Shown one piece after another: positions 3,512 to 24,032 of a stretch of 44,559 bases of DNA. The notes beneath the pieces are model-generated. The model had not been told where the DNA came from and searched no databases. It saw only the letters and a list, made by a program, of their open reading frames with translations. How positions within the stretch are numbered: the first letter of the stretch is position 1; each line of letters begins with the position of its first letter. The translations under genes and the position numbers were made by a program. Source of the stretch: Escherichia phage SM_A8; the sequence record PP920553.1. The stretch is one strand, 5' to 3'.

Positions 3512-4598
3512 TCAACATTTGGCGGATCGCATGATCCGCCGTCACATCTTCACCCAGCGCCTGAGCAATGACCAGGCGCGGAGGGTGCTGGCTATGTGGG
3601 AGAAGTTCCGGCCTACATTACTGGGAAAGCTGACCGAGTTGCTTGATGGCAAATCGTCAATGAACAACAAGGCACTTACCACACTGTTAACGCAACTCGA
3701 CAAGACCGTCAAAACGGAACTGCGCACCGAGTTTAAGGCGTTGGCTGAAAGCCTTCAGGAGTTCGCCGACACCGAGGCTGATTATCTCGCCGACACATTA
3801 ACGGCAGCGATCCAGCCGGTAGTCGCCGTACCGGCGGTCGAGGTGGTTGGCGTAGTGACCGGCGCGCAGATCGCAGCAACGGCAATGAAAAACCCGTTCC
3901 AGGGCAATACCATGATGCAATGGCCTGACTCACTTTCTGAGTGGACCAGGACGCAGATCGGTAATCAGGTGCGGGCGGGATTCATCCAAGGCAAGCCAAC
4001 GATGGAAATTATCGCGGACGTGAGGCGCGCGCTAGGCGGTCGTAGTGCGCAAGCCATCTCAAGCGTTGTTAAGTCCGCAGTAAACCACTATGCGGCGACT
4101 GCCCGCGAACTAATGGTAAAAGCAAATGACGATATTCTCGAAGGTCGCCAATGGTTATCTACATTGGACACACATACTTCTCCCATGTGCCAGCTACGCG
4201 ATCGCCTGTTTTATCCGGTTGATGTTACTCCCGACACCAAAGGAAAGCGCGGCGGGAAAGTGGTGGCGGGGTCACAGTATGGCGCTGGCCCAGGCAAGCT
4301 GCATTATTGCTGCCGGTCGACGGAGACGTGGAAAGTCAAAGGCATGGAAGATTGGCCCAGTGGTAAGCGTCCGGCACTGAAGGCCGACGCGGGTCGATTG
4401 CTGAGTGAGCAGGTAGACGCGCAGACTGATTTCTTCTCATGGGTGCAGCGCCAGCCGCGCCATATCCTGGAAGAATTATATGGAGTGCAACGCGCCGACC
4501 AGATTATGCGCGGCATGAAAGTGCCGAAGATGTTCACCGATTCTGGCGAACTGATGACTATTGCACAGCTTAAAAACCGGGGGTTATGGCGTGATTAA
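3495..4598 (+). CDS. head morphogenesis protein (Mu F / SPP1 gp7-like)
   Basis: 367-aa ORF overlapping portal stop; position and composition typical of minor head morphogenesis proteins. Confidence 0.6.
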   Translation: MAKTINQHLADRMIRRHIFTQRLSNDQARRVLAMWEKFRPTLLGKLTELLDGKSSMNNKALTTLLTQLDKTVKTELRTEFKALAESLQEFADTEADYLADTLTAAIQPVVAVPAVEVVGVVTGAQIAATAMKNPFQGNTMMQWPDSLSEWTRTQIGNQVRAGFIQGKPTMEIIADVRRALGGRSAQAISSVVKSAVNHYAATARELMVKANDDILEGRQWLSTLDTHTSPMCQLRDRLFYPVDVTPDTKGKRGGKVVAGSQYGAGPGKLHYCCRSTETWKVKGMEDWPSGKRPALKADAGRLLSEQVDAQTDFFSWVQRQPRHILEELYGVQRADQIMRGMKVPKMFTDSGELMTIAQLKNRGLWRD

Positions 4599-4920
4599 AT
4601 ATGCAGCGATTGGACTGGTTATCGGTCTGGCGGTAGGATTCTGGCTAGGTGACTCCTATCGCGCTGGCGTAGTGGCGGAGGCGGCGCAAGAAGCGCAAGC
4701 CCAAGCCCAACGGCAGCAAACTAAAGTAATCGAGCGCTCCGTGCAGGCAGAACAAGCCCGCGACGTGGAATACCGGACTATCACAAAAGAGGTTGTTAAA
4801 TATGTTACGCGCCCTAACCGCCCTGATTGTAGTTTTGACGCTGAGCGCGTGCGGATCAAGCAGCGTGCCGTTGATGCCGCTAACGGAGTCGGCACTGCGA
4901 CCGCCGTGCAAGTTCGATAA
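4591..4920 (+). CDS. i-spanin (Rz-like)
   Basis: GTG start overlapping upstream stop; N-terminal TM segment IKYAAIGLVIGLAVGFW then charged Q/A/E-rich periplasmic region; contains an embedded +1 frame lipoprotein gene. Confidence 0.5.
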   Translation: MIKYAAIGLVIGLAVGFWLGDSYRAGVVAEAAQEAQAQAQRQQTKVIERSVQAEQARDVEYRTITKEVVKYVTRPNRPDCSFDAERVRIKQRAVDAANGVGTATAVQVR

Positions 4921-5032
4921 CCCGTCTGCGGACCCCGACGAAGATTTGATGATTGACGTGAAAAATATGGAATGCGGGGCGAAGCTGAGGGCGCAGGTGT
5001 TGGAGTTGCAGCAAATAATTAAGGGGCCGTAA
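4802..5032 (+). CDS. o-spanin (Rz1-like outer-membrane lipoprotein)
   Basis: RBS AAAGAGG 9 nt upstream; signal peptide with lipobox LSAC, proline-rich mature part; +1 frame overlap with Rz-like gene and extends past it. Confidence 0.55.
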   Translation: MLRALTALIVVLTLSACGSSSVPLMPLTESALRPPCKFDNPSADPDEDLMIDVKNMECGAKLRAQVLELQQIIKGP

Positions 5033-16958: not shown

Positions 16959-17566
16959 CCACATTTAAATTATACGGCGTTTTAGGACGTCGATTCGGTA
17001 AAGTGCATAAGCTGGACTGCTTCACTCCTGGCGAGGGTATCACCGGCCTGTGCGTGAAGTTACCCGGCTTACAGGACTTTCTAATGTCGGCCCACCTGGA
17101 CAATATGATGTTCAAGGTGCGCAAAGGCGACCACACGATGACCGGCTATGATGAGCTGGGCGAGTTCCACGGCAACCGCGTAGTTACCATCGCGCCGGTT
17201 ATGACGGGCGCAAAAAGAGGGTTGGGACAATTGCTGGCGGGTGTCGCGATCGTAGTGGCGTCGTTCTATACGGGCGGACTTGCTACTGCCGCTTTCGGGG
17301 CTTCGGCTGCAACCGCTGCCGCTATCGGGACGGCGACGTTTTCGTTCGGGATGTCGATGGCGCTGGGTGGCGTTATGCAATTGCTGTCGCCACAACCGAA
17401 AGGATTGCAGACAAGGCAGGACGTGGATAACAAAGCGTCGTACGCGTTCGGCGGGCCAGTGAATACAACAGCGCAAGGCACGGCGCTTGGTGTATTATGG
17501 GGCGAGCGTGAGATCGGCGGCGCTATTATTTCAGCCGGAATAGTAACCGAGGACTTGAACGAATGA
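16949..17566 (+). CDS. tail assembly protein I-like
   Basis: 205 aa, Gly/Ala-rich hydrophobic C-terminal half; between K-like and J-like genes. Confidence 0.55.
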   Translation: MAMTTFKLYGVLGRRFGKVHKLDCFTPGEGITGLCVKLPGLQDFLMSAHLDNMMFKVRKGDHTMTGYDELGEFHGNRVVTIAPVMTGAKRGLGQLLAGVAIVVASFYTGGLATAAFGASAATAAAIGTATFSFGMSMALGGVMQLLSPQPKGLQTRQDVDNKASYAFGGPVNTTAQGTALGVLWGEREIGGAIISAGIVTEDLNE

Positions 17567-20500
17567 CGATTATCTACGACGTCACAGGGCATAAAGGCGG
17601 CGGCGGCAAACAGCACACCCCGCAGGAGACGCCAGATAGCCTGCATTCGCTGGCTAAAATCCGCATCTTGCTTGCGCTGGGGGAAGGGGAATTCGAAAGT
17701 ATTACCAGCGCCAGCGAATTGCGGCAGCGTGTTTACCTTGATGGAACGCCGATCCAGAACGCTGACTTGTCCGAAAACTTCCCTGGCGCGCGTGTGGAGT
17801 TCCGCCCCGGCACACAGCACCAGGATGTGATCCACGGATTTTCAGCGGTGGAAAGTGAGCAATCTGTCGGCGTAAAACTGGAAAACGGTACGCCGTGGGT
17901 ACGCCAGATTAACGATACCAGTCTGGACGCCGTTCGCATTCGCATCGGAATTCCGGCCCTGTACACTAACGAAGATAATGGCGACCTGGTTGGCGGACGC
18001 ATTGACTATAAGATCGTTGTGTATACGGATAACGCCGACCCGCGTGAGTTCAGATTCGCCGCCGTTGGTAAAACAATGTCGCTGTATGAGCGCGACCACC
18101 GCATCGAATTACCGCCGAACGTGAATACCGGCTGGCGCGTGGAGGTGCACCGCATAACGGCAGACTCCACATCGGCGAAAGTGGTTAATGATATCCGGGT
18201 GCAGTCCATCACTGAGATTATTGACGCCCGCCTGCGTTACCCGCTAACCGCGCTGTTGTTTGTGGAGTTCGACGCCAAAGCGTTCCAGAACATCCCGCGC
18301 GTGTCCATCAAGTGCAAAGGTCGCAAAGTTCTAATACCGAACAACTACGACCCGATCAATCATACCTATTCCGGGGACTGGGACGGCACGTTTAAACGCG
18401 CATGGACGGATAACCCTGCGTGGCACTGGTACGATATTTGTATTACTGAGCGCTTCGGCCTCGGTCGGCGTATCAAACCGCAAATGCTAAACCGATACGC
18501 GCTCTACCAGATTGCGCAGCGCTGCGATCAGTTGGTCAGCGACGGCAACGGTGGTAGAGAAATCCGCTTTAAGAATGATATGTACATTCAGTCACAGACG
18601 GATGCCTGGACCGTGCTTAAGGATTTAGCCGCCATCTTCGCCGGAATGACCTGGTGGGGCAACCAGATGTTGAATATCGTAAGTGACCAGCCGGTCGCAG
18701 CGGTATCGCACACTATCACCAACGCCTCGGTTATTGATGGCAGATTAGACTACGCGTCAGGGAGCCAGAAAACTCGCTATTCCACGTTCGCTGTAGCATA
18801 CGGCAACCCGAAGAACCACTATGAAGATGCTATAGCAACGGGGCAACGTGTCGAACTGGTACGCCGCCATAAGATTAACCGTCTTGATATTACGGCGATC
18901 GGCTGTACGCGTGAATCTGAAGCGCAACGTCGCGGGCACTGGGCGCTAATTTCCAACCAGCTTGACCAGCAAGTTAGCTTTAAAGTTGGCATGGAAGGGT
19001 TATTCTTTATTCCCGGTAGCGTAGTCGCGATCGCGGATACAAACATTTCTGGCGGTTTTGAGACGCGCGGCGGTCGACTGTTGTCGGACCCCGGAAATCG
19101 TACCGTGCTGAACACGGACAGCGAAATCACATTCCGCACTGGCGATAAGTTCCTGGTACGCACCGATAGCGGTAATGTGGAGACTCGCGAGATCGCCAGC
19201 GTCAACGGCAACAAGGTAACGCTAAAAACCGCACTGGACGCCAACCCTATTCCTGACCAGCCGTTTTGCGTTGATGGCGACGATATCCAGTTGCAGAAAT
19301 TCCGCATCACCGACCTGGAGTATGACGACTCTACGAGCACTTTCTCGGTGCGCGGGATTGAGTACAACGATAGCAAGTATGATGCCGTTGATAATGGCGC
19401 GCGCCTTGATCCGGGTATCTTTACGCAAGTGCCTGACGGGGTAATGAAGGGGCCGGAATCCGTGACCATTACCCCGTCGCAGATTTCATCGCAAGGCCAG
19501 CTAATCACCAACGTGGATATTGTGTTCCCGCCGGTGAAGGATGCCGTGGTGTATGAAATCCAGTGGAGGCGTACCAGCCTTCAGAATATGGAAATCCAGT
19601 GGGGTAACGACTGGGTGAATATCCCACGCACGGCGTCGAATGGGGCGCACATCCCTAACGTGTTCTCCGGTAACTACCAGGCACGCGTCCGCGCGATCGG
19701 TATGGGCGAGATTTCATCTCCGTGGGTGTCGTCCGCCATCACGCCGGTGGAAGGTCGTCTCGGTGGGCTTAACGCACCAATCATCACCAACGCTATTTCG
19801 GGCCTTCACCAGATCTTGTGGAAGTGGAACCACAACAACGCCGCTACTGATATCTCGTACACCGAGCTTGAAGTGCGCAAGACCGGTGAGACTGAATGGA
19901 AATTCCTTACCAACGTCCCATACCCGGGGTCGGAGTATGCGCAAACGTCGCTGGAGTTCGGCATCTATCAGCAGTTGCGCGCCCGTGTAGCGGATAAAAT
20001 CGGCAACCTGTCGGACTGGTCGGCCCCGTTTGAAGGGCAGGTGAGTGACAATGTTGACGAGTATATGAAGGGGCTGGACGACGAGTTCTTGACTTCTGAG
20101 GACGGTAAACGCTTCCAGGAAGCGATCGACACCATGCCGCAAGGCATTTATGAGGCTATGCTCACCGACGCACAGCAGTTGTTTAACGCCCGCGCCGAGT
20201 ACCAGGGGATTTACGCAGAAATCAAGGTGGCGTATAACGTGGCGGCAGATGCCCACCAGGCGGTAGCGCAACTGGAAACGTTGATCGGTACTCGCCTTGA
20301 CGATGCTGAAGCGGCAATCCACACGTTGCAGACAGCGCAGAGTACGCAGGAACAAGCGTTCGCCCAGTACCAGCAAACCGTCTCTGCTAAGTTTGGCGAA
20401 CAGGAAGCCGCAATCCAGCAGGTGCAAACGGCGACAAGTGACGTAGCAAGCGCGCTTGCGGAGTATAAGACACAGGTCGCGGCGCAGTTCGGTCAGCAGT

Positions 20501-20982
20501 CCGCAGCTATCGAGCAGAAGATGACGTCCTCGTTTAACCACTCCGGTGGTAGCGCAACTTACAGCCTTAAGGCTGGCGTGACGTATAACGGGACTTACTA
20601 CGATGCCGGTATGCAGCTTTCCGTTGTGACGTCTGGCAACGCGGTTAAATCGCGTATTGCGTTCAAGGCGGACCAGTTCTACATCATGCATCCGTCCAAT
20701 GGGACGCTGTCGTCTGCGTTTATTGTGGACGGTGGCGCGGTGTATATCGACACGGCACGCATCAAGAACGCGTCCATCAACTTCGCGCAGATAACAGACA
20801 CGCTGCAATCGAATAACTACGACGGCAGCACGCTAGGCTGGCGCTTAGGGAAAGATGGAACGTTTATCAACCTGGGCACCGGTAGCGGCGGCGGGATGAA
20901 ACAGACGAACACAAGAATCAGCGTGAAGGACGGAAACGGCGTTCTCCGCGTGCAAATTGGCGAGCTTACTGGTAGCTGGTAG
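17563..20982 (+). CDS. central tail fiber / host specificity protein J-like
   Basis: 1139 aa; position and size match lambda J; start overlaps upstream stop. Confidence 0.8.
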   Translation: MTIIYDVTGHKGGGGKQHTPQETPDSLHSLAKIRILLALGEGEFESITSASELRQRVYLDGTPIQNADLSENFPGARVEFRPGTQHQDVIHGFSAVESEQSVGVKLENGTPWVRQINDTSLDAVRIRIGIPALYTNEDNGDLVGGRIDYKIVVYTDNADPREFRFAAVGKTMSLYERDHRIELPPNVNTGWRVEVHRITADSTSAKVVNDIRVQSITEIIDARLRYPLTALLFVEFDAKAFQNIPRVSIKCKGRKVLIPNNYDPINHTYSGDWDGTFKRAWTDNPAWHWYDICITERFGLGRRIKPQMLNRYALYQIAQRCDQLVSDGNGGREIRFKNDMYIQSQTDAWTVLKDLAAIFAGMTWWGNQMLNIVSDQPVAAVSHTITNASVIDGRLDYASGSQKTRYSTFAVAYGNPKNHYEDAIATGQRVELVRRHKINRLDITAIGCTRESEAQRRGHWALISNQLDQQVSFKVGMEGLFFIPGSVVAIADTNISGGFETRGGRLLSDPGNRTVLNTDSEITFRTGDKFLVRTDSGNVETREIASVNGNKVTLKTALDANPIPDQPFCVDGDDIQLQKFRITDLEYDDSTSTFSVRGIEYNDSKYDAVDNGARLDPGIFTQVPDGVMKGPESVTITPSQISSQGQLITNVDIVFPPVKDAVVYEIQWRRTSLQNMEIQWGNDWVNIPRTASNGAHIPNVFSGNYQARVRAIGMGEISSPWVSSAITPVEGRLGGLNAPIITNAISGLHQILWKWNHNNAATDISYTELEVRKTGETEWKFLTNVPYPGSEYAQTSLEFGIYQQLRARVADKIGNLSDWSAPFEGQVSDNVDEYMKGLDDEFLTSEDGKRFQEAIDTMPQGIYEAMLTDAQQLFNARAEYQGIYAEIKVAYNVAADAHQAVAQLETLIGTRLDDAEAAIHTLQTAQSTQEQAFAQYQQTVSAKFGEQEAAIQQVQTATSDVASALAEYKTQVAAQFGQQSAAIEQKMTSSFNHSGGSATYSLKAGVTYNGTYYDAGMQLSVVTSGNAVKSRIAFKADQFYIMHPSNGTLSSAFIVDGGAVYIDTARIKNASINFAQITDTLQSNNYDGSTLGWRLGKDGTFINLGTGSGGGMKQTNTRISVKDGNGVLRVQIGELTGSW

Positions 20983-20986
20983 TATA

Positions 20987-21005
20987 GGGGCTTCGGCCCC
21001 TTTTT
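20987..21005 (+). terminator. rho-independent terminator after J-like gene
   Basis: GGGGC-ttcg-GCCCC followed by T5. Confidence 0.6.
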
Positions 21006-21018
21006 AACGAGGTTATTT

Positions 21019-21321
21019 ATGGCATTCGGTATCGCAACGTGGGACGCGCAAGGACGCCCAAACAACTACGGCATTAAACCGGTAAGCGTGATCGGAAGGA
21101 TTCATCTTGCGGAAGGACAAAAATCAGGCGCATGGTCATTCCCTGTACCGGCGGGGATGAAGGTCGGATACGTGGTCGCACTGGATAAAGGCGCGGTCGG
21201 GCCAGGCCGCAGAATAACCGCCAGCGGGAACACTATCACGGTTTCCGCGGCAAGTGCGGTAGGTGGCGGGGTTTACTCCGCATCTGAATGTGACGTTATT
21301 GTTTTTGTGGAGCGAGCATAA
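21019..21321 (+). CDS. hypothetical protein (tail-associated by position)
   Basis: 100-aa ORF downstream of J-like gene; start overlaps the next gene. Confidence 0.5.
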   Translation: MAFGIATWDAQGRPNNYGIKPVSVIGRIHLAEGQKSGAWSFPVPAGMKVGYVVALDKGAVGPGRRITASGNTITVSAASAVGGGVYSASECDVIVFVERA

Positions 21322-21995
21322 TGGCTAATTACGGCGCGTTGATTGACTTACCAAACGGCAACCCGTTTATCACACCAGAATCGACGCCGTTTTGTCTATT
21401 CCGCCGTGTGGTTGTTGGGTCTTCGGCTAACGGCACTGCGCAGTCGGCGGCTGCCGATATTAATTTGGGTGGTGACTACCCTGCAATAGCGTTTGTGAAA
21501 ACTACGCACACCGCCCAGCCGACCGTCGTAGGGTCTTCTCGCGTTGGTAATGTGGTGAAGGTGAGCGCCAGCAATCCATTCGGGCAAGGCTTCACGATGA
21601 CGGCTTACATCTTTGCCATATTCCCACAGACCCTTCCGCGGTGGGGCTTCGCTATTTGGGATAAGACGGGGAAGCTAGTGCTTACTAATGAGAGTCGCGT
21701 ACTAAGCGATTTAGTTACCGTCGGATCGCCAGGCGCTAACGGGGGGATTAACATTGACCAGACGCTAAATGGCAGCTACGCCGTCGCTCCGGGCATATTG
21801 GGGTCTACGCTGATCCGGTTTTTTGTGCAGGGCCAGCCGCAAGTAATATCGGTAACGGCGTACACGGGGGCCAGATTTGATGGGTCGCGAACGCGTATAT
21901 CGGCAGCGTCGTCGGGGAACGCCACGGGGGATGTGGTGGGGTATACTAACAACGGCAACGCGATTATGGCGATTAACACGGCCAATTATGATTGA
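21321..21995 (+). CDS. hypothetical protein (tail-associated by position)
   Basis: 224-aa ORF, Gly/Ser/Thr-rich; no motif recognised. Confidence 0.5.
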   Translation: MANYGALIDLPNGNPFITPESTPFCLFRRVVVGSSANGTAQSAAADINLGGDYPAIAFVKTTHTAQPTVVGSSRVGNVVKVSASNPFGQGFTMTAYIFAIFPQTLPRWGFAIWDKTGKLVLTNESRVLSDLVTVGSPGANGGINIDQTLNGSYAVAPGILGSTLIRFFVQGQPQVISVTAYTGARFDGSRTRISAASSGNATGDVVGYTNNGNAIMAINTANYD

Positions 21996-21999
21996 AGAA

Positions 22000-22020
22000 A
22001 GCCCCGAAAGGGGCTTATTT
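22000..22020. terminator. bidirectional terminator candidate
   Basis: AGCCCC-gaaa-GGGGCT then TATTTG; between convergent genes and overlapping the lipoprotein stop codon. Confidence 0.5.
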
Positions 22021-22236
22021 GCAGGTTGTGCTTTTGAAATGGTCTACAGACACGTACTGGAAGCTGAACGGATAGCCAGCCCTTAGCATTTTATGCCCGG
22101 AGAAGTCTGCAACACCATACACAGGGACCGCATAATCCATACCGCCAGTGTGGTATGTCGCCTCGCAGATCTTGCCAGGCATCGTGGAGCATCCTACCAG
22201 CACCGCAACTACACAGGCTAAAAGTAAAGTTTTCAT
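22015..22236 (-). CDS. small lipoprotein, putative receptor-blocking superinfection exclusion protein (Llp/Cor-like)
   Basis: 73 aa; signal peptide MKTLLLACVVAVLVGC with lipobox, two further Cys; RBS AGGGGA; own promoter; sits between host-specificity gene block and tail fiber on the opposite strand. Confidence 0.55.
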   Translation of the reverse strand: MKTLLLACVVAVLVGCSTMPGKICEATYHTGGMDYAVPVYGVADFSGHKMLRAGYPFSFQYVSVDHFKSTTCK

Positions 22237-22267
22237 GGTATCATCCCCTATATTTGGTTGAGTTTTA

Positions 22268-22295
22268 ATATTACACCACTCAACCAGGATTGCAA
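22268..22295 (-). promoter_or_regulatory. sigma70-like promoter for the lipoprotein gene
   Basis: minus-sense TTGCAA-N16-TAATAT; the -35 is part of an 8-mer copy (22292-22299). Confidence 0.4.
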
Positions 22296-22316
22296 CCAAT
22301 TTACGAGGATTTAGCT

Positions 22317-24032
22317 ATGGCAGCGGGTACGCTATCAGTAACGAACAACAGCAAGGCGGTAGTAGGGGTCGGCACGACGTTTACCGCGTTTAAAGCTGGC
22401 GACTTCTTAACGCTGGTGGTAGGACAAGTCCCATACACCGTGGCAATCGCGTCCATTGAAAGCGCAACCGCGCTCACGCTGGTGTTGCCGTTCGACGGCC
22501 CAACGGCAACCGGCCTTGCGTGGGATGGCGTTAAGCGCGACACCATGTCACTGGCGACGATGGGCGTTACCGTACAGGCACAAAAAGCATTGCGCTTGAT
22601 GATCGCAGATGAAAACAACTGGCGTGCAATCTTCGGCGACGCTGAAGAAATCACCGTGACGCTACCTAACGGGCAGGTTATGCAGGGAATGTCATGGGGC
22701 TATCTGTCGTCTTTGCTTAAGAACGTAGACCCAGTTGAGATGCGCGACCTGCAACAGCAAGCCGTAACAGCGAAAAACCAGGCAGTTACGGCTAATGGGC
22801 AAGCGGAAGCGGCACGCGACGCTGCCGTAACAGCGAAAAACCAGGCAGTTACGGCTAAGGGGCAAGCGGAAGCGGCACGCGACGCTGCGAACACGGCTAA
22901 GACTGGCGCGGAGGCGGCCCGCAATCAGGCCGAACAATTCGCTAATAGTGTTAATACTGAAAACCTACTTGCGAAGGCCAACAACTTAAGCGATGTTGCG
23001 GATATGGGTGTAACGCGCGAAAACATTGGCGTAGACCGCCTATCGCAAAACATAACCAGCGGCGAAACACAAATCAGGACTGCGGCGAAGAATAAATGGA
23101 TCTTCGTTAAGGAAAATGGCGACTGGGGCGGGTGGGATAATGCCAACAATAAAGCCATGCCGCTGCCGATTGCATTCGGTGGTACGGGGCGCGGCGATAA
23201 CGTCGCCGAGTTCCGCCAATTCAAATCAAACGGCGACACCCAAGATGGGTTAATCATTACGCAGAACGACAACGGATTCGGTGGTGTGGGCTGGGCCGAT
23301 TCCGCGGATAAAGTACGCTGGCGTATGGGCATCGACGAAGCCTCTGGCCATTTTAAAATATACTCATACGACTCCGCGGGAGCGTATCGAGACACCGTCC
23401 TCGAGATCACCGGAGTAGGAGTCGGTGGCATGGTGTGGTCCCGTGATATTACCGTGCGCCCGACGACGGCAGTTCCTGCGCGGTCTTTCGTTCTAAACAA
23501 CGGAAAAGCTACCGTCCCGGCTGGTAACTTCCGCACGATGTGGGATACGGTTAATATCAATAGTAACCAGATCTATAAATATTTTGAGAAGGGAGACGGC
23601 ACTGGCTTTACAGTCAATTGGCCCTCATCTGGTGGTGTTATTGCCCTCCAGGGTACATCAGGAAGGGACTTTAAGAAAGATATTACCGACGCGGACGTTA
23701 CCGAAGCGGTTGCACGCATTGAACAAATGCGCATGGTGCGCTACGTGTATAAGGACGATGTGAAGGAGCGCGTCCGCTTCGGCATCATTGCCGAAGAAGC
23801 AGAAGAGATTGCGCCTCAATACATCAAACACCGTGAGGAGACGTACGATGTGGAGGTGGACCCCGAGACTAACGCCATCGTCGGGGGTAAGACGCGCGAC
23901 CGTCCGTCGGTGGACGTTAACCCTATCGTGATGGACTTGATGGGGTGCGCACAATATGCGATCGCTGAGTGTAAACGCCTGGCGGCGGAAGTGGAGGATT
24001 TGAAAGCCGAGATCGCGGCGTTGAAGAAATAA
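22317..24032 (+). CDS. tail fiber protein with C-terminal intramolecular chaperone (peptidase S74-like) domain
   Basis: ATG 22317 with GAGGA RBS (track start 22290 is TTG); 63-bp tandem repeat at 22761-22886; C-terminus matches the S74 chaperone pattern (RFGIIAEEAEEIAPQYI ... LAAEVEDLKAEIAALKK). Confidence 0.7.
   Translation: MAAGTLSVTNNSKAVVGVGTTFTAFKAGDFLTLVVGQVPYTVAIASIESATALTLVLPFDGPTATGLAWDGVKRDTMSLATMGVTVQAQKALRLMIADENNWRAIFGDAEEITVTLPNGQVMQGMSWGYLSSLLKNVDPVEMRDLQQQAVTAKNQAVTANGQAEAARDAAVTAKNQAVTAKGQAEAARDAANTAKTGAEAARNQAEQFANSVNTENLLAKANNLSDVADMGVTRENIGVDRLSQNITSGETQIRTAAKNKWIFVKENGDWGGWDNANNKAMPLPIAFGGTGRGDNVAEFRQFKSNGDTQDGLIITQNDNGFGGVGWADSADKVRWRMGIDEASGHFKIYSYDSAGAYRDTVLEITGVGVGGMVWSRDITVRPTTAVPARSFVLNNGKATVPAGNFRTMWDTVNINSNQIYKYFEKGDGTGFTVNWPSSGGVIALQGTSGRDFKKDITDADVTEAVARIEQMRMVRYVYKDDVKERVRFGIIAEEAEEIAPQYIKHREETYDVEVDPETNAIVGGKTRDRPSVDVNPIVMDLMGCAQYAIAECKRLAAEVEDLKAEIAALKK

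What the first reader, a model, noticed from the sequence alone, without database searches (positions are those of the whole stretch)
22000..22300. Opposite-strand lipoprotein next to receptor-binding genes: candidate Llp/Cor-type superinfection exclusion
A 73-aa protein with signal peptide and lipobox (LVGC) plus two further cysteines is encoded on the minus strand between the J-like/tail-associated genes and the tail fiber. It has its own promoter (TTGCAA-N16-TAATAT) and a bidirectional terminator. Size, lipidation signal and position match receptor-blocking lipoproteins such as T5 Llp and phi80/N15 Cor.
Basis: partly seen in the sequence, partly recalled or inferred. Interest (0 to 1): 0.6.

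Follow-up and report, generated by a model that had tools for sequence, protein, structure and literature searches.

The report
Cor receptor-blocking lipoprotein of a Dhillonvirus

The parts
17563..20982 (+). J-like tail tip gene (1139 aa). Roughly its last 130 nt (from about 20855) are specific to the receptor cassette.
   Evidence: ORF list. Pfam GpJ domains are recorded on the identical metagenome contigs. Homology to the LptD-type phage Oekolampad stops at 20854.
21019..21321 (+). N15 gp22-like gene (100 aa; PHROG 557, historically named 'outer membrane protein'). First of two putative receptor-binding-module genes.
   Evidence: PHROG 557 E=1.1e-32. It is 100% aa identical to Envy and 53-73% to T1, phi80 and N15.
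21321..21995 (+). N15 gp23-like gene (224 aa; PHROG 425, 'membrane associated protein'). Second putative receptor-binding-module gene.
   Evidence: PHROG 425 E=4.6e-70. It is 100% aa identical to Envy and 54-64% to T1, phi80 and N15.
21999..22016 (.). G+C-rich hairpin between the convergent gp23-like and cor genes. It overlaps the cor stop codon and is a probable bidirectional terminator.
   Evidence: Free energy -14/-12.4 kcal/mol, z -2.9/-3.4. Stem conserved, loop GAAA/TTTC flipped, with a G-C to U-A compensatory pair in SM_W22, JLBYU37 and Teewinot. T1 has an annotated terminator at the same position. Not called by the rule-based scanner.
22015..22236 (-). cor: 73-aa prelipoprotein. Signal peptide is aa 1-15 (22192-22236), the lipobox Cys16 codon is 22189-22191, and the mature protein is 58 aa with C24 and C72.
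22244..22249 (-). Shine-Dalgarno AGGGGA, 7 nt upstream of the cor ATG.
   Evidence: Read from the sequence. Conserved in relatives.
22267..22295 (-). Candidate sigma-70 promoter for cor. The -35 is TTGCAA (22295-22290). The -10 is either TAATAT (22273-22268, N16; window-specific) or the extended -10 TGT-AATATT (22275-22267, N17; conserved as AATACT in relatives).
   Evidence: The 95% identical spacer in Oekolampad precedes a leftward lipoprotein-plus-RBP gene pair, which argues for a real leftward promoter. This is inference.
22317..24032 (+). Lateral tail fibre gene (571 aa from the ATG at 22317), transcribed divergently from cor.
   Evidence: PHROG 1980 E=9e-133. Relatives' annotations.

Best explanation
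The ORF at 22015-22236 (-) is the cor gene of a virulent FhuA-targeting Dhillonvirus.

Proposed steps, all inferred unless marked otherwise:
1. The prelipoprotein is exported, lipidated on Cys16 and cleaved by signal peptidase II.
2. [quoted passage not shown]
3. The 58-residue mature domain is a small beta-rich fold, probably clamped by a C24-C72 disulfide. It binds the periplasmic face or plug of the ferrichrome transporter FhuA, as T5 Llp does.
4. Binding drives FhuA into a state whose extracellular loops (EL7/EL8 in the Llp complex) no longer accept the phage's receptor-binding module.
5. This blocks superinfection by this phage and by other FhuA phages. It also keeps progeny virions from being wasted on FhuA in lysed-cell debris.

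The gene is its own transcription unit. It is antisense to the late tail operon, driven from the 80-bp spacer it shares with the tail fibre gene, and insulated from the convergent gp23-like gene by a shared hairpin.

Shown here: the ORF, the lipobox, family membership, cassette context, purifying selection and the Llp-like predicted fold. Not shown here: lipidation, localisation, FhuA binding, the exclusion phenotype and promoter activity.
For: Family membership. PHROG 1119 'Cor superinfection exclusion protein' E=2.4e-24 over residues 1-73. NCBIfam NF047972 equivalog at 56.3 bits against a cutoff of 31. Identity is 47% to T1 Cor and 38-40% to phi80, N15 and HK022 Cor. C16, C24, C72 and R-A-G-Y-P-F are invariant across those sequences. 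The three cysteines, G54 and P56 remain invariant in 90 homologues, where A53, Y55 and F57 are at least 90% conserved.

Context. The layout matches T1: J, gp22-like, gp23-like, terminator, then cor on the opposite strand. The same cassette is present in phi80, N15 and HK022.

Receptor. The gp22/gp23-like proteins are 100% identical to those of Envy. They are 97-100% nt identical to JLBYU37, JLBYU60 and Teewinot. All four are reported to be FhuA-dependent, and the last three need FhuA loop 8 (PMC10373560). The Cor cassette in BASEL Drexlerviridae and Dhillonvirus phages co-occurs with FhuA use (PMC13164509; PMC8594841).

Profile links to Llp. hmmsearch of PDB sequences puts Llp first at E=0.0036. 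hhalign gives probability 87.5% full length with both disulfide cysteines aligned. In that alignment Cor G54-Y61, which includes part of the conserved RAGYPF motif, pairs with Llp mature residues 39-46. That Llp segment occupies the space of the FhuA switch helix (PMC9586334).

Coding constraint. dN/dS is 0.07-0.26.
Against: No experiment on any Dhillonvirus Cor was found, so function is transferred from temperate-phage Cor proteins and from Llp. Pfam has no model for the family. Pairwise BLASTP to Llp finds nothing, and part of the profile score comes from the signal peptide. The Foldseek E-value for Llp is only 0.055, and small beta-barrels (Tudor, SH3) score nearby. The molecular mechanism of Cor is stated to be unresolved (bioRxiv 10.64898/2026.03.26.714494). 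A 2018 paper, known here only by its title, reports that Cor interacts with several outer membrane proteins. The promoter is weak by consensus. This allele's signal peptide is atypical for the genus.
Confidence: 0.85

Rival explanations
1. It is a Cor-family lipoprotein and does exclude FhuA phages, but not by an Llp-like periplasmic plug jam. Instead it acts through, or needs, other outer membrane proteins such as OmpA or porins, or it lowers the amount or assembly of FhuA.
For: The Cor mechanism is explicitly called unresolved. [quoted passage not shown] Sequence identity to Llp is only about 26%.
Against: The model's best structural match is the FhuA-bound conformation of Llp. The conserved Cor motif aligns with the Llp segment that contacts the FhuA plug region. 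[quoted passage not shown]
Confidence: 0.12
2. The lipoprotein blocks a different receptor, for example BtuB, another TonB-dependent transporter, or LptD, rather than FhuA.
For: Cor-like proteins are reported in BtuB-using Markadamsvirinae and in a Tempevirinae phage (PMC13164509). Dhillonviruses as a genus use FhuA, LptD, LamB or BtuB.
Against: The adjacent receptor-binding-module proteins are 100% identical to those of FhuA-dependent Envy and nearly identical to those of JLBYU37, JLBYU60 and Teewinot. The LptD-type Dhillonvirus Oekolampad carries a different cassette and an unrelated lipoprotein, PHROG 4281. The Rtp45 chain 9rps_D matches only through the signal peptide, at E=4.5.
Confidence: 0.04
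3. It is a lysis or other housekeeping lipoprotein (an o-spanin, Rz1-like), or a decaying unexpressed remnant, and is not an exclusion factor.
For: It is a small outer-membrane lipoprotein, as o-spanins are. Its promoter is weak by consensus. The GenBank record of the closest allele, SM_S22, does not annotate it at all.
Against: A separate embedded i-spanin/o-spanin pair is present at 4561-4920 and 4793-5032, with PHROG Rz-like spanin hits at E=2.6e-36 and 2.7e-26. The ORF has no spanin family hit. Strong purifying selection, dN/dS 0.07 on aa 37-73, argues against decay. All 12 aligned relatives have an intact gene.
Confidence: 0.02

Closest known systems
Cor of phage T1 (Drexlerviridae; gene ST30)
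   Same: It belongs to the same protein family, at 47% identity with the same invariant cysteines and RAGYPF motif. The locus layout is the same: J, gp22-like, gp23-like, a terminator overlapping the cor 3' end, and cor on the opposite strand in a virulent siphophage.
   Different: Downstream of T1 cor come recombination genes, after a 527-bp spacer. Here an 80-bp spacer is followed by the divergent tail fibre gene. The cassette proteins are only 53-54% identical.
Cor of temperate phages phi80, N15, HK022 and the mEp phages. The literature read here reports that prophage Cor proteins exclude FhuA-dependent phages and functionally inactivate FhuA.
   Same: The family is the same, at 38-40% identity, as are the lipobox, the cysteines and the motif. 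The gp22/gp23/cor cassette also lies downstream of J.
   Different: In those phages cor is on the same strand as the tail genes and acts as a lysogenic-conversion 'moron'. Here, as in T1, it is on the opposite strand in a phage with no annotated integrase or repressor in collinear relatives. Those proteins carry a 3-residue insertion after the lipobox region.
Llp of phage T5 (lytic conversion lipoprotein; PDB 8A60, 7QJF)
   Different: No pairwise sequence similarity is detectable, and it is a different PHROG/NCBIfam family by sequence. Llp is divergent from the single RBP gene oad (pb5). cor is convergent with the gp23-like gene and divergent from the tail fibre gene.
Rtp45 / Oekolampad bas18_0026 (LptD-blocking superinfection exclusion lipoprotein; PDB 9RPS)
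   Same: It occupies the same slot in the Dhillonvirus genome. The upstream spacer is the same, and in most Dhillonviruses the signal peptide is identical (MKTLIMICAVLLSGC). The logic is the same: a small periplasmic lipoprotein blocks the phage's own receptor (PMC12685063).
   Different: The mature protein is unrelated (PHROG 4281). It targets LptDE and is co-transcribed with its RBP gene on the minus strand.

Membership tests
Cor superinfection-exclusion lipoproteins (PHROG 1119; NCBIfam NF047972 lamb_exclu_cor) | Full-length profile match above the curated threshold. | tested here: met
   NCBIfam gives 56.3 bits against a cutoff of 31, over residues 1-72. PHROG 1119 gives E=2.4e-24 over residues 1-73.
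Cor superinfection-exclusion lipoproteins (PHROG 1119; NCBIfam NF047972 lamb_exclu_cor) | Type II (lipoprotein) signal peptide with a lipobox cysteine and no Asp at +2. | tested here: met
   The sequence reads MKTLLLACVVAVLVGC|ST. C16 is invariant in 9 and in 90 aligned homologues.
Cor superinfection-exclusion lipoproteins (PHROG 1119; NCBIfam NF047972 lamb_exclu_cor) | Two conserved mature-domain cysteines and the (R)AGYPF motif. | tested here: met
   C24, C72, G54 and P56 are invariant, and A53, Y55 and F57 are at least 90% conserved, in 90 sequences. R52 through F57 are invariant against T1, phi80, N15 and HK022.
Cor superinfection-exclusion lipoproteins (PHROG 1119; NCBIfam NF047972 lamb_exclu_cor) | Location directly after the J / gp22-like / gp23-like genes (the FhuA cassette). 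| tested here: met
Cor superinfection-exclusion lipoproteins (PHROG 1119; NCBIfam NF047972 lamb_exclu_cor) | Expression excludes FhuA-dependent phages and inactivates FhuA transport. | not testable with these tools
   This needs efficiency-of-plating, ferrichrome and albomycin assays. FhuA use by phages with an identical cassette comes from the literature (PMC10373560).
Cor superinfection-exclusion lipoproteins (PHROG 1119; NCBIfam NF047972 lamb_exclu_cor) | Lipidation and outer-membrane localisation. | not testable with these tools
   Only the sequence signals are present.
T5 Llp (lytic conversion lipoprotein) | Detectable sequence homology to Llp. | tested here: inconclusive
   BLASTP finds no alignment. 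The Cor profile against PDB sequences puts Llp first at E=0.0036, but only over residues 1-42 including the signal peptide. hhalign gives probability 87.5% and 27% identity full length.
T5 Llp (lytic conversion lipoprotein) | The same three-dimensional fold. | tested here: met
T5 Llp (lytic conversion lipoprotein) | Binds the periplasmic face or plug of FhuA and closes EL7/EL8. | not testable with these tools
   No complex prediction or experiment was available here. A published AF3 model exists for KanT1 Cor only.
Rtp45-type LptD-blocking lipoprotein (PHROG 4281) | Sequence similarity of the mature domain. | tested here: not met
   The 9rps_D match is E=4.5 over the signal peptide only. The Oekolampad protein has a different mature sequence and a different PHROG.
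o-spanin (Rz1-like outer-membrane lipoprotein) | Spanin profile match, and a position embedded in or adjacent to an i-spanin gene. | tested here: not met
   The ORF has no spanin hit. The phage's spanin pair is at 4561-5032.

The most novel reading that the evidence does not exclude
In Dhillonviruses the promoter, Shine-Dalgarno and signal peptide of the exclusion-lipoprotein gene are a fixed backbone 'adaptor'. Its junction at the lipobox cysteine codon serves as the right-hand recombination boundary for swapping whole receptor cassettes: the J C-terminus, the RBP genes and the mature exclusion lipoprotein, for example FhuA/Cor against LptD/Rtp45-like. This window's phage breaks that rule. 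It has a replaced signal peptide, unmatched in sequenced phages, plus two C-to-T changes in the promoter core, one of which turns TAATAC into TAATAT. Together these could mean retuned expression or export of Cor.
Probability: 0.3. Interest if true: 0.3.

Novelty: new member of a known kind. Interest (0 to 1): 0.15.

Why it matters
It matters mainly as a correct annotation. The gene marks this phage as an FhuA user and predicts that infected cells become refractory to T1, T5, phi80 and related phages, which is relevant when designing phage cocktails. It adds one more, slightly unusual, allele to a family whose molecular mechanism has still not been shown directly. Its model's closest structural match is FhuA-bound Llp, and its conserved motif aligns with the Llp segment that contacts the FhuA plug region. 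Together these give a concrete, testable binding hypothesis. The finding opens no new question.

Tried and rejected
- Pfam gave no hit, so the family had to be identified through PHROGs and NCBIfam.
- The first single-sequence homologue search returned only 5 close proteins. An alignment query was needed to reach 267.
I therefore relied on conservation and comparative arguments.
- I looked for the origin of the unusual signal-peptide DNA. There was no match in 50,697 phage records beyond SM_S22 at 78%, and no exact 20-mer in IMG/VR. The origin remains unknown.
- Rfam found nothing in the whole window, so no known RNA element explains the region.
- The spanin reading was rejected.
- Positive selection on the variable N-terminal part of mature Cor was considered and rejected. 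dN/dS is 0.26, so the constraint is relaxed but still purifying, and the pattern looks like mosaicism.
- The inverted repeat around the -10 is not significant as an RNA fold, with z -1.7.
- The 2018 Cor/outer-membrane-protein paper could not be read.
- One row of the DNA alignment (SM_S22) used wrong coordinates and was ignored.

Full report
**What the window is.** The 44,559-bp window is a complete genome of a Dhillonvirus, an HK578/SO-1-like E. coli siphophage. Its first 25 kb align over 93-98% of their length at 92-94% identity with phages SM_W22, JLBYU60, EC115, GeorgBuechner and others. It is collinear with the annotated JLBYU60 genome, which carries no annotated integrase or repressor. 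A protein identical to the one in question occurs only on three metagenome contigs, two of about 44.6 kb and one of 10.9 kb, with the same neighbouring genes. These are probably the same phage.

**The observation.** On the minus strand an ORF runs from the ATG at 22236 to the TAA at 22015-22017. It encodes 73 aa.
- The N-terminus MKTLLLACVVAVLVGC has a positively charged start, a hydrophobic core and a lipobox L-V-G-C16.
- Residue +2 is Ser, so there is no Lol-avoidance signal.
- The mature 58-residue part has two more cysteines, C24 and C72.
- AGGGGA lies 7 nt upstream of the ATG.

The frame is under purifying selection. Pooled over ten Dhillonviruses with the same cassette type, dN/dS is 0.07 for aa 37-73 and 0.26 for aa 17-36. 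The plus-strand mini-ORFs annotated here in one GenBank relative, SM_S22, are therefore mis-calls.

**Promoter.** It is only 8 of 12 to consensus and was not called by the scanner. Sites of that quality occur about 1.4 per kb on this strand. In all 12 aligned relatives and in Oekolampad the second hexamer reads TAATAC. A reading that is conserved across the genus is TTGCAA-N17-TGT-AATA(T/C)T, an extended -10.

**Hairpin.** The hairpin at 21999-22016 overlaps the cor stop codon. It folds at -14 and -12.4 kcal/mol on the two strands, with z-scores of -2.9 and -3.4. Its T-tails are short. Its stem is conserved while the loop flips between GAAA and TTTC, and one pair changes G-C to U-A in three relatives. 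T1 has an annotated terminator at the equivalent spot. A bidirectional terminator is therefore plausible.

**What it is.** Pfam has no model for the family.
- PHROG 1119 'Cor superinfection exclusion protein' matches full length at E=2.4e-24.
- The NCBIfam equivalog NF047972 'phage exclusion lipoprotein Cor' scores 56.3 bits against a cutoff of 31.
- In alignment the protein is 47% identical to T1 Cor and 38-40% to phi80, N15 and HK022 Cor. The lipobox Cys, C24, C72 and R-A-G-Y-P-F are invariant.
- The three cysteines, G54 and P56 stay invariant in 90 diverse homologues, most of them named 'cor protein' or 'phage exclusion lipoprotein Cor' by their sources.
- tblastn finds the gene in 233 phage records, and many relatives already annotate it as Cor.

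**Context.** Immediately upstream are the J-like tail tip gene (17563-20982) and two small genes, at 21019-21321 (100 aa, PHROG 557) and 21321-21995 (224 aa, PHROG 425). These are homologues of N15 gp22 and gp23. [quoted passage not shown] The BASEL study treats this locus as the bona fide receptor-binding-protein locus with its cognate exclusion gene (PMC8594841).

The J/gp22/gp23/cor order is the same in T1, phi80, N15 and HK022. Among 85 loci surveyed, cor lies on the opposite strand in the T1-like and Dhillonvirus loci and in two further contigs (L052, L053), and on the same strand in the phi80-, N15- and HK022-like ones. A 2026 paper already describes this 'cor cassette' and its association with FhuA use, including in BASEL Dhillonviruses (PMC13164509).

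**Which receptor.** The window's gp22-like and gp23-like proteins are 100% identical to those of phage Envy. They are 97-100% identical at the DNA level to those of JLBYU37, JLBYU60 and Teewinot. Envy is reported to be FhuA-dependent. The other three were shown to depend on FhuA, specifically on its loop 8 (PMC10373560). Oekolampad, the LptD-using Dhillonvirus, has a different cassette in the same slot: an RBP of PHROG 1265 plus an unrelated lipoprotein of PHROG 4281. I therefore infer that this phage uses FhuA and that its Cor targets FhuA.

**How it probably works.** An AlphaFold2 model built on 90 homologues is confident for the mature domain, with pLDDT 94-96 over residues 21-70 and four beta-strands.
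- Foldseek ranks 8a60_B second, with the best TM-scores but a weak E-value of 0.055, among Tudor/SH3-like small barrels.
- By sequence, pairwise BLASTP sees nothing.
- The Cor profile ranks Llp first among PDB sequences at E=0.0036.
- hhalign aligns the two full length at 87.5% probability, with both non-lipobox cysteines paired.

In the hhalign alignment Cor residues 54-61, which include part of the conserved RAGYPF motif, correspond to mature Llp residues 39-46. The numbering comes from the T5 mat_peptide annotation. In the crystal structure that Llp segment occupies the space of the FhuA switch helix. Llp binding to the periplasmic plug then folds loops EL7 and EL8 inward and blocks the phage RBP (PMC9586334). 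The Dhillonvirus relatives need loop 8, so an Llp-like 'reverse allostery' would suffice to exclude them.

This chain is inference. The literature itself says the Cor mechanism is not yet resolved, although it groups Cor and Llp structurally. The rivals, in order of plausibility, are action through other outer membrane proteins, another target receptor, and a spanin or a dead gene. The last two are poorly supported: a separate spanin pair sits at 4561-5032, and the gene is under constraint.

**Expression.** cor is convergent with the late tail and cassette genes and divergent from the tail fibre gene (22317-24032). The 80-bp spacer is 90-94% identical across the 12 aligned Dhillonvirus relatives. 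It differs at only 4 positions from the spacer of Oekolampad. In Oekolampad the lipoprotein gene is followed on the same strand by the RBP gene, so a leftward promoter in this spacer is needed there to make a structural protein. This supports, but does not prove, a functional promoter here. Timing is unknown. T5 llp likewise has its own annotated promoter region next to the RBP gene.

**Comparison and novelty.** The gene is a member of the Cor family. All sequence-level defining features were tested and met; the functional ones could not be tested. It works like T5 Llp but is not an Llp-family member by sequence. The cassette, its FhuA association, its presence in Dhillonviruses and the Cor-Llp fold similarity are all already published or annotated.

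**Things seen in passing.**
1. This allele's signal peptide, MKTLLLACVVAVLVGC, differs from MKTLIMICAVLLSGC. The latter is shared by all 12 other Dhillonvirus cor genes aligned and even by Oekolampad's unrelated LptD-type lipoprotein. Its DNA (22189-22221) has no counterpart in the phage collection or in IMG/VR.
2. Homology between FhuA-type and LptD-type Dhillonviruses resumes exactly at the lipobox. The left boundary lies about 130 nt before the end of J. The signal peptide plus spacer therefore act as a fixed linker for cassette exchange.
3. Synonymous divergence in cor (dS about 0.44-0.48) is 6-10 times that of the adjacent gp22/gp23-like genes (0.04-0.07). This indicates a mosaic boundary near the hairpin.
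4. The window has two unique C-to-T changes on the cor strand in the promoter core, at 22268 and 22278.

Noticed in passing
window 22189-22236 (-): The signal peptide of this Cor allele, MKTLLLACVVAVLVGC (one residue longer), differs from MKTLIMICAVLLSGC, which is shared by all 12 other Dhillonvirus cor genes aligned. The DNA is only about 60% identical to theirs. It has no match in 50,697 phage records beyond SM_S22 at 78%, and no exact 20-mer in IMG/VR. Its origin is unknown.
   Followed up: partly
window 20855-22221; L092 (Oekolampad) 1145-2500; L091 (GeorgBuechner) 1687: The receptor cassette has sharp boundaries. Homology between FhuA-type and LptD-type Dhillonviruses ends about 130 nt before the J stop and resumes exactly at the lipobox Cys codon of the exclusion lipoprotein. 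Unrelated mature lipoproteins (Cor and the PHROG 4281 protein) therefore share one signal peptide, Shine-Dalgarno and promoter spacer.
   Followed up: partly
window 21019-22236: Among phages with the same cassette type, synonymous divergence is 0.04-0.07 in the gp22/gp23-like genes but 0.44-0.48 in cor. cor and the receptor-binding-module genes therefore have different histories, with a mosaic junction near the hairpin at 21999-22016.
   Followed up: partly
window 22256-22285: An 8-bp inverted repeat, GGTTGAGT...ACTCAACC, brackets the candidate -10 element. In relatives it is 7 bp, because position 22278 is G there rather than A. As an RNA fold it is not significant (z -1.7). It could be a protein-binding site.
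   Followed up: partly
window 22268 and 22278: Two positions in the cor promoter core are A in the window (T on the cor strand) but G in all 12 aligned relatives and in Oekolampad. One converts TAATAC to TAATAT, which could be a promoter-up change.
   Followed up: no
L086 (SM_S22, PP627283.1) 2471-2707: The GenBank annotation of SM_S22, whose mature Cor is the closest match in the phage collection (96.6% aa), lacks cor and instead lists two small wrong-strand 'hypothetical proteins'.
   Followed up: yes
window 4561-4920 and 4793-5032 (+): An embedded i-spanin/o-spanin pair (o-spanin lipobox LSAC) sits among the head morphogenesis genes. It is about 38 kb from where the collinear relative JLBYU60 has its holin and lysozyme genes (42.3-43.3 kb), which is an unusual split of the lysis functions.
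   Followed up: partly
L019-L037, L039, L044, L054, L058, L080, L083 (IMG/VR loci): About 25 Cor-encoding viral contigs (38-46% identity) show no gp22/gp23-like genes within 5 kb. In these, cor also occurs outside the canonical cassette.
   Followed up: no
L009-L011 (YD-2008.s-like Dhillonviruses): There is a second Dhillonvirus variant of the cassette. Its gp22-like protein is 72% and its gp23-like protein only 53% identical to the window's, but it is still paired with an opposite-strand Cor of 73-75% identity. Whether these phages also use FhuA was not checked.
   Followed up: no
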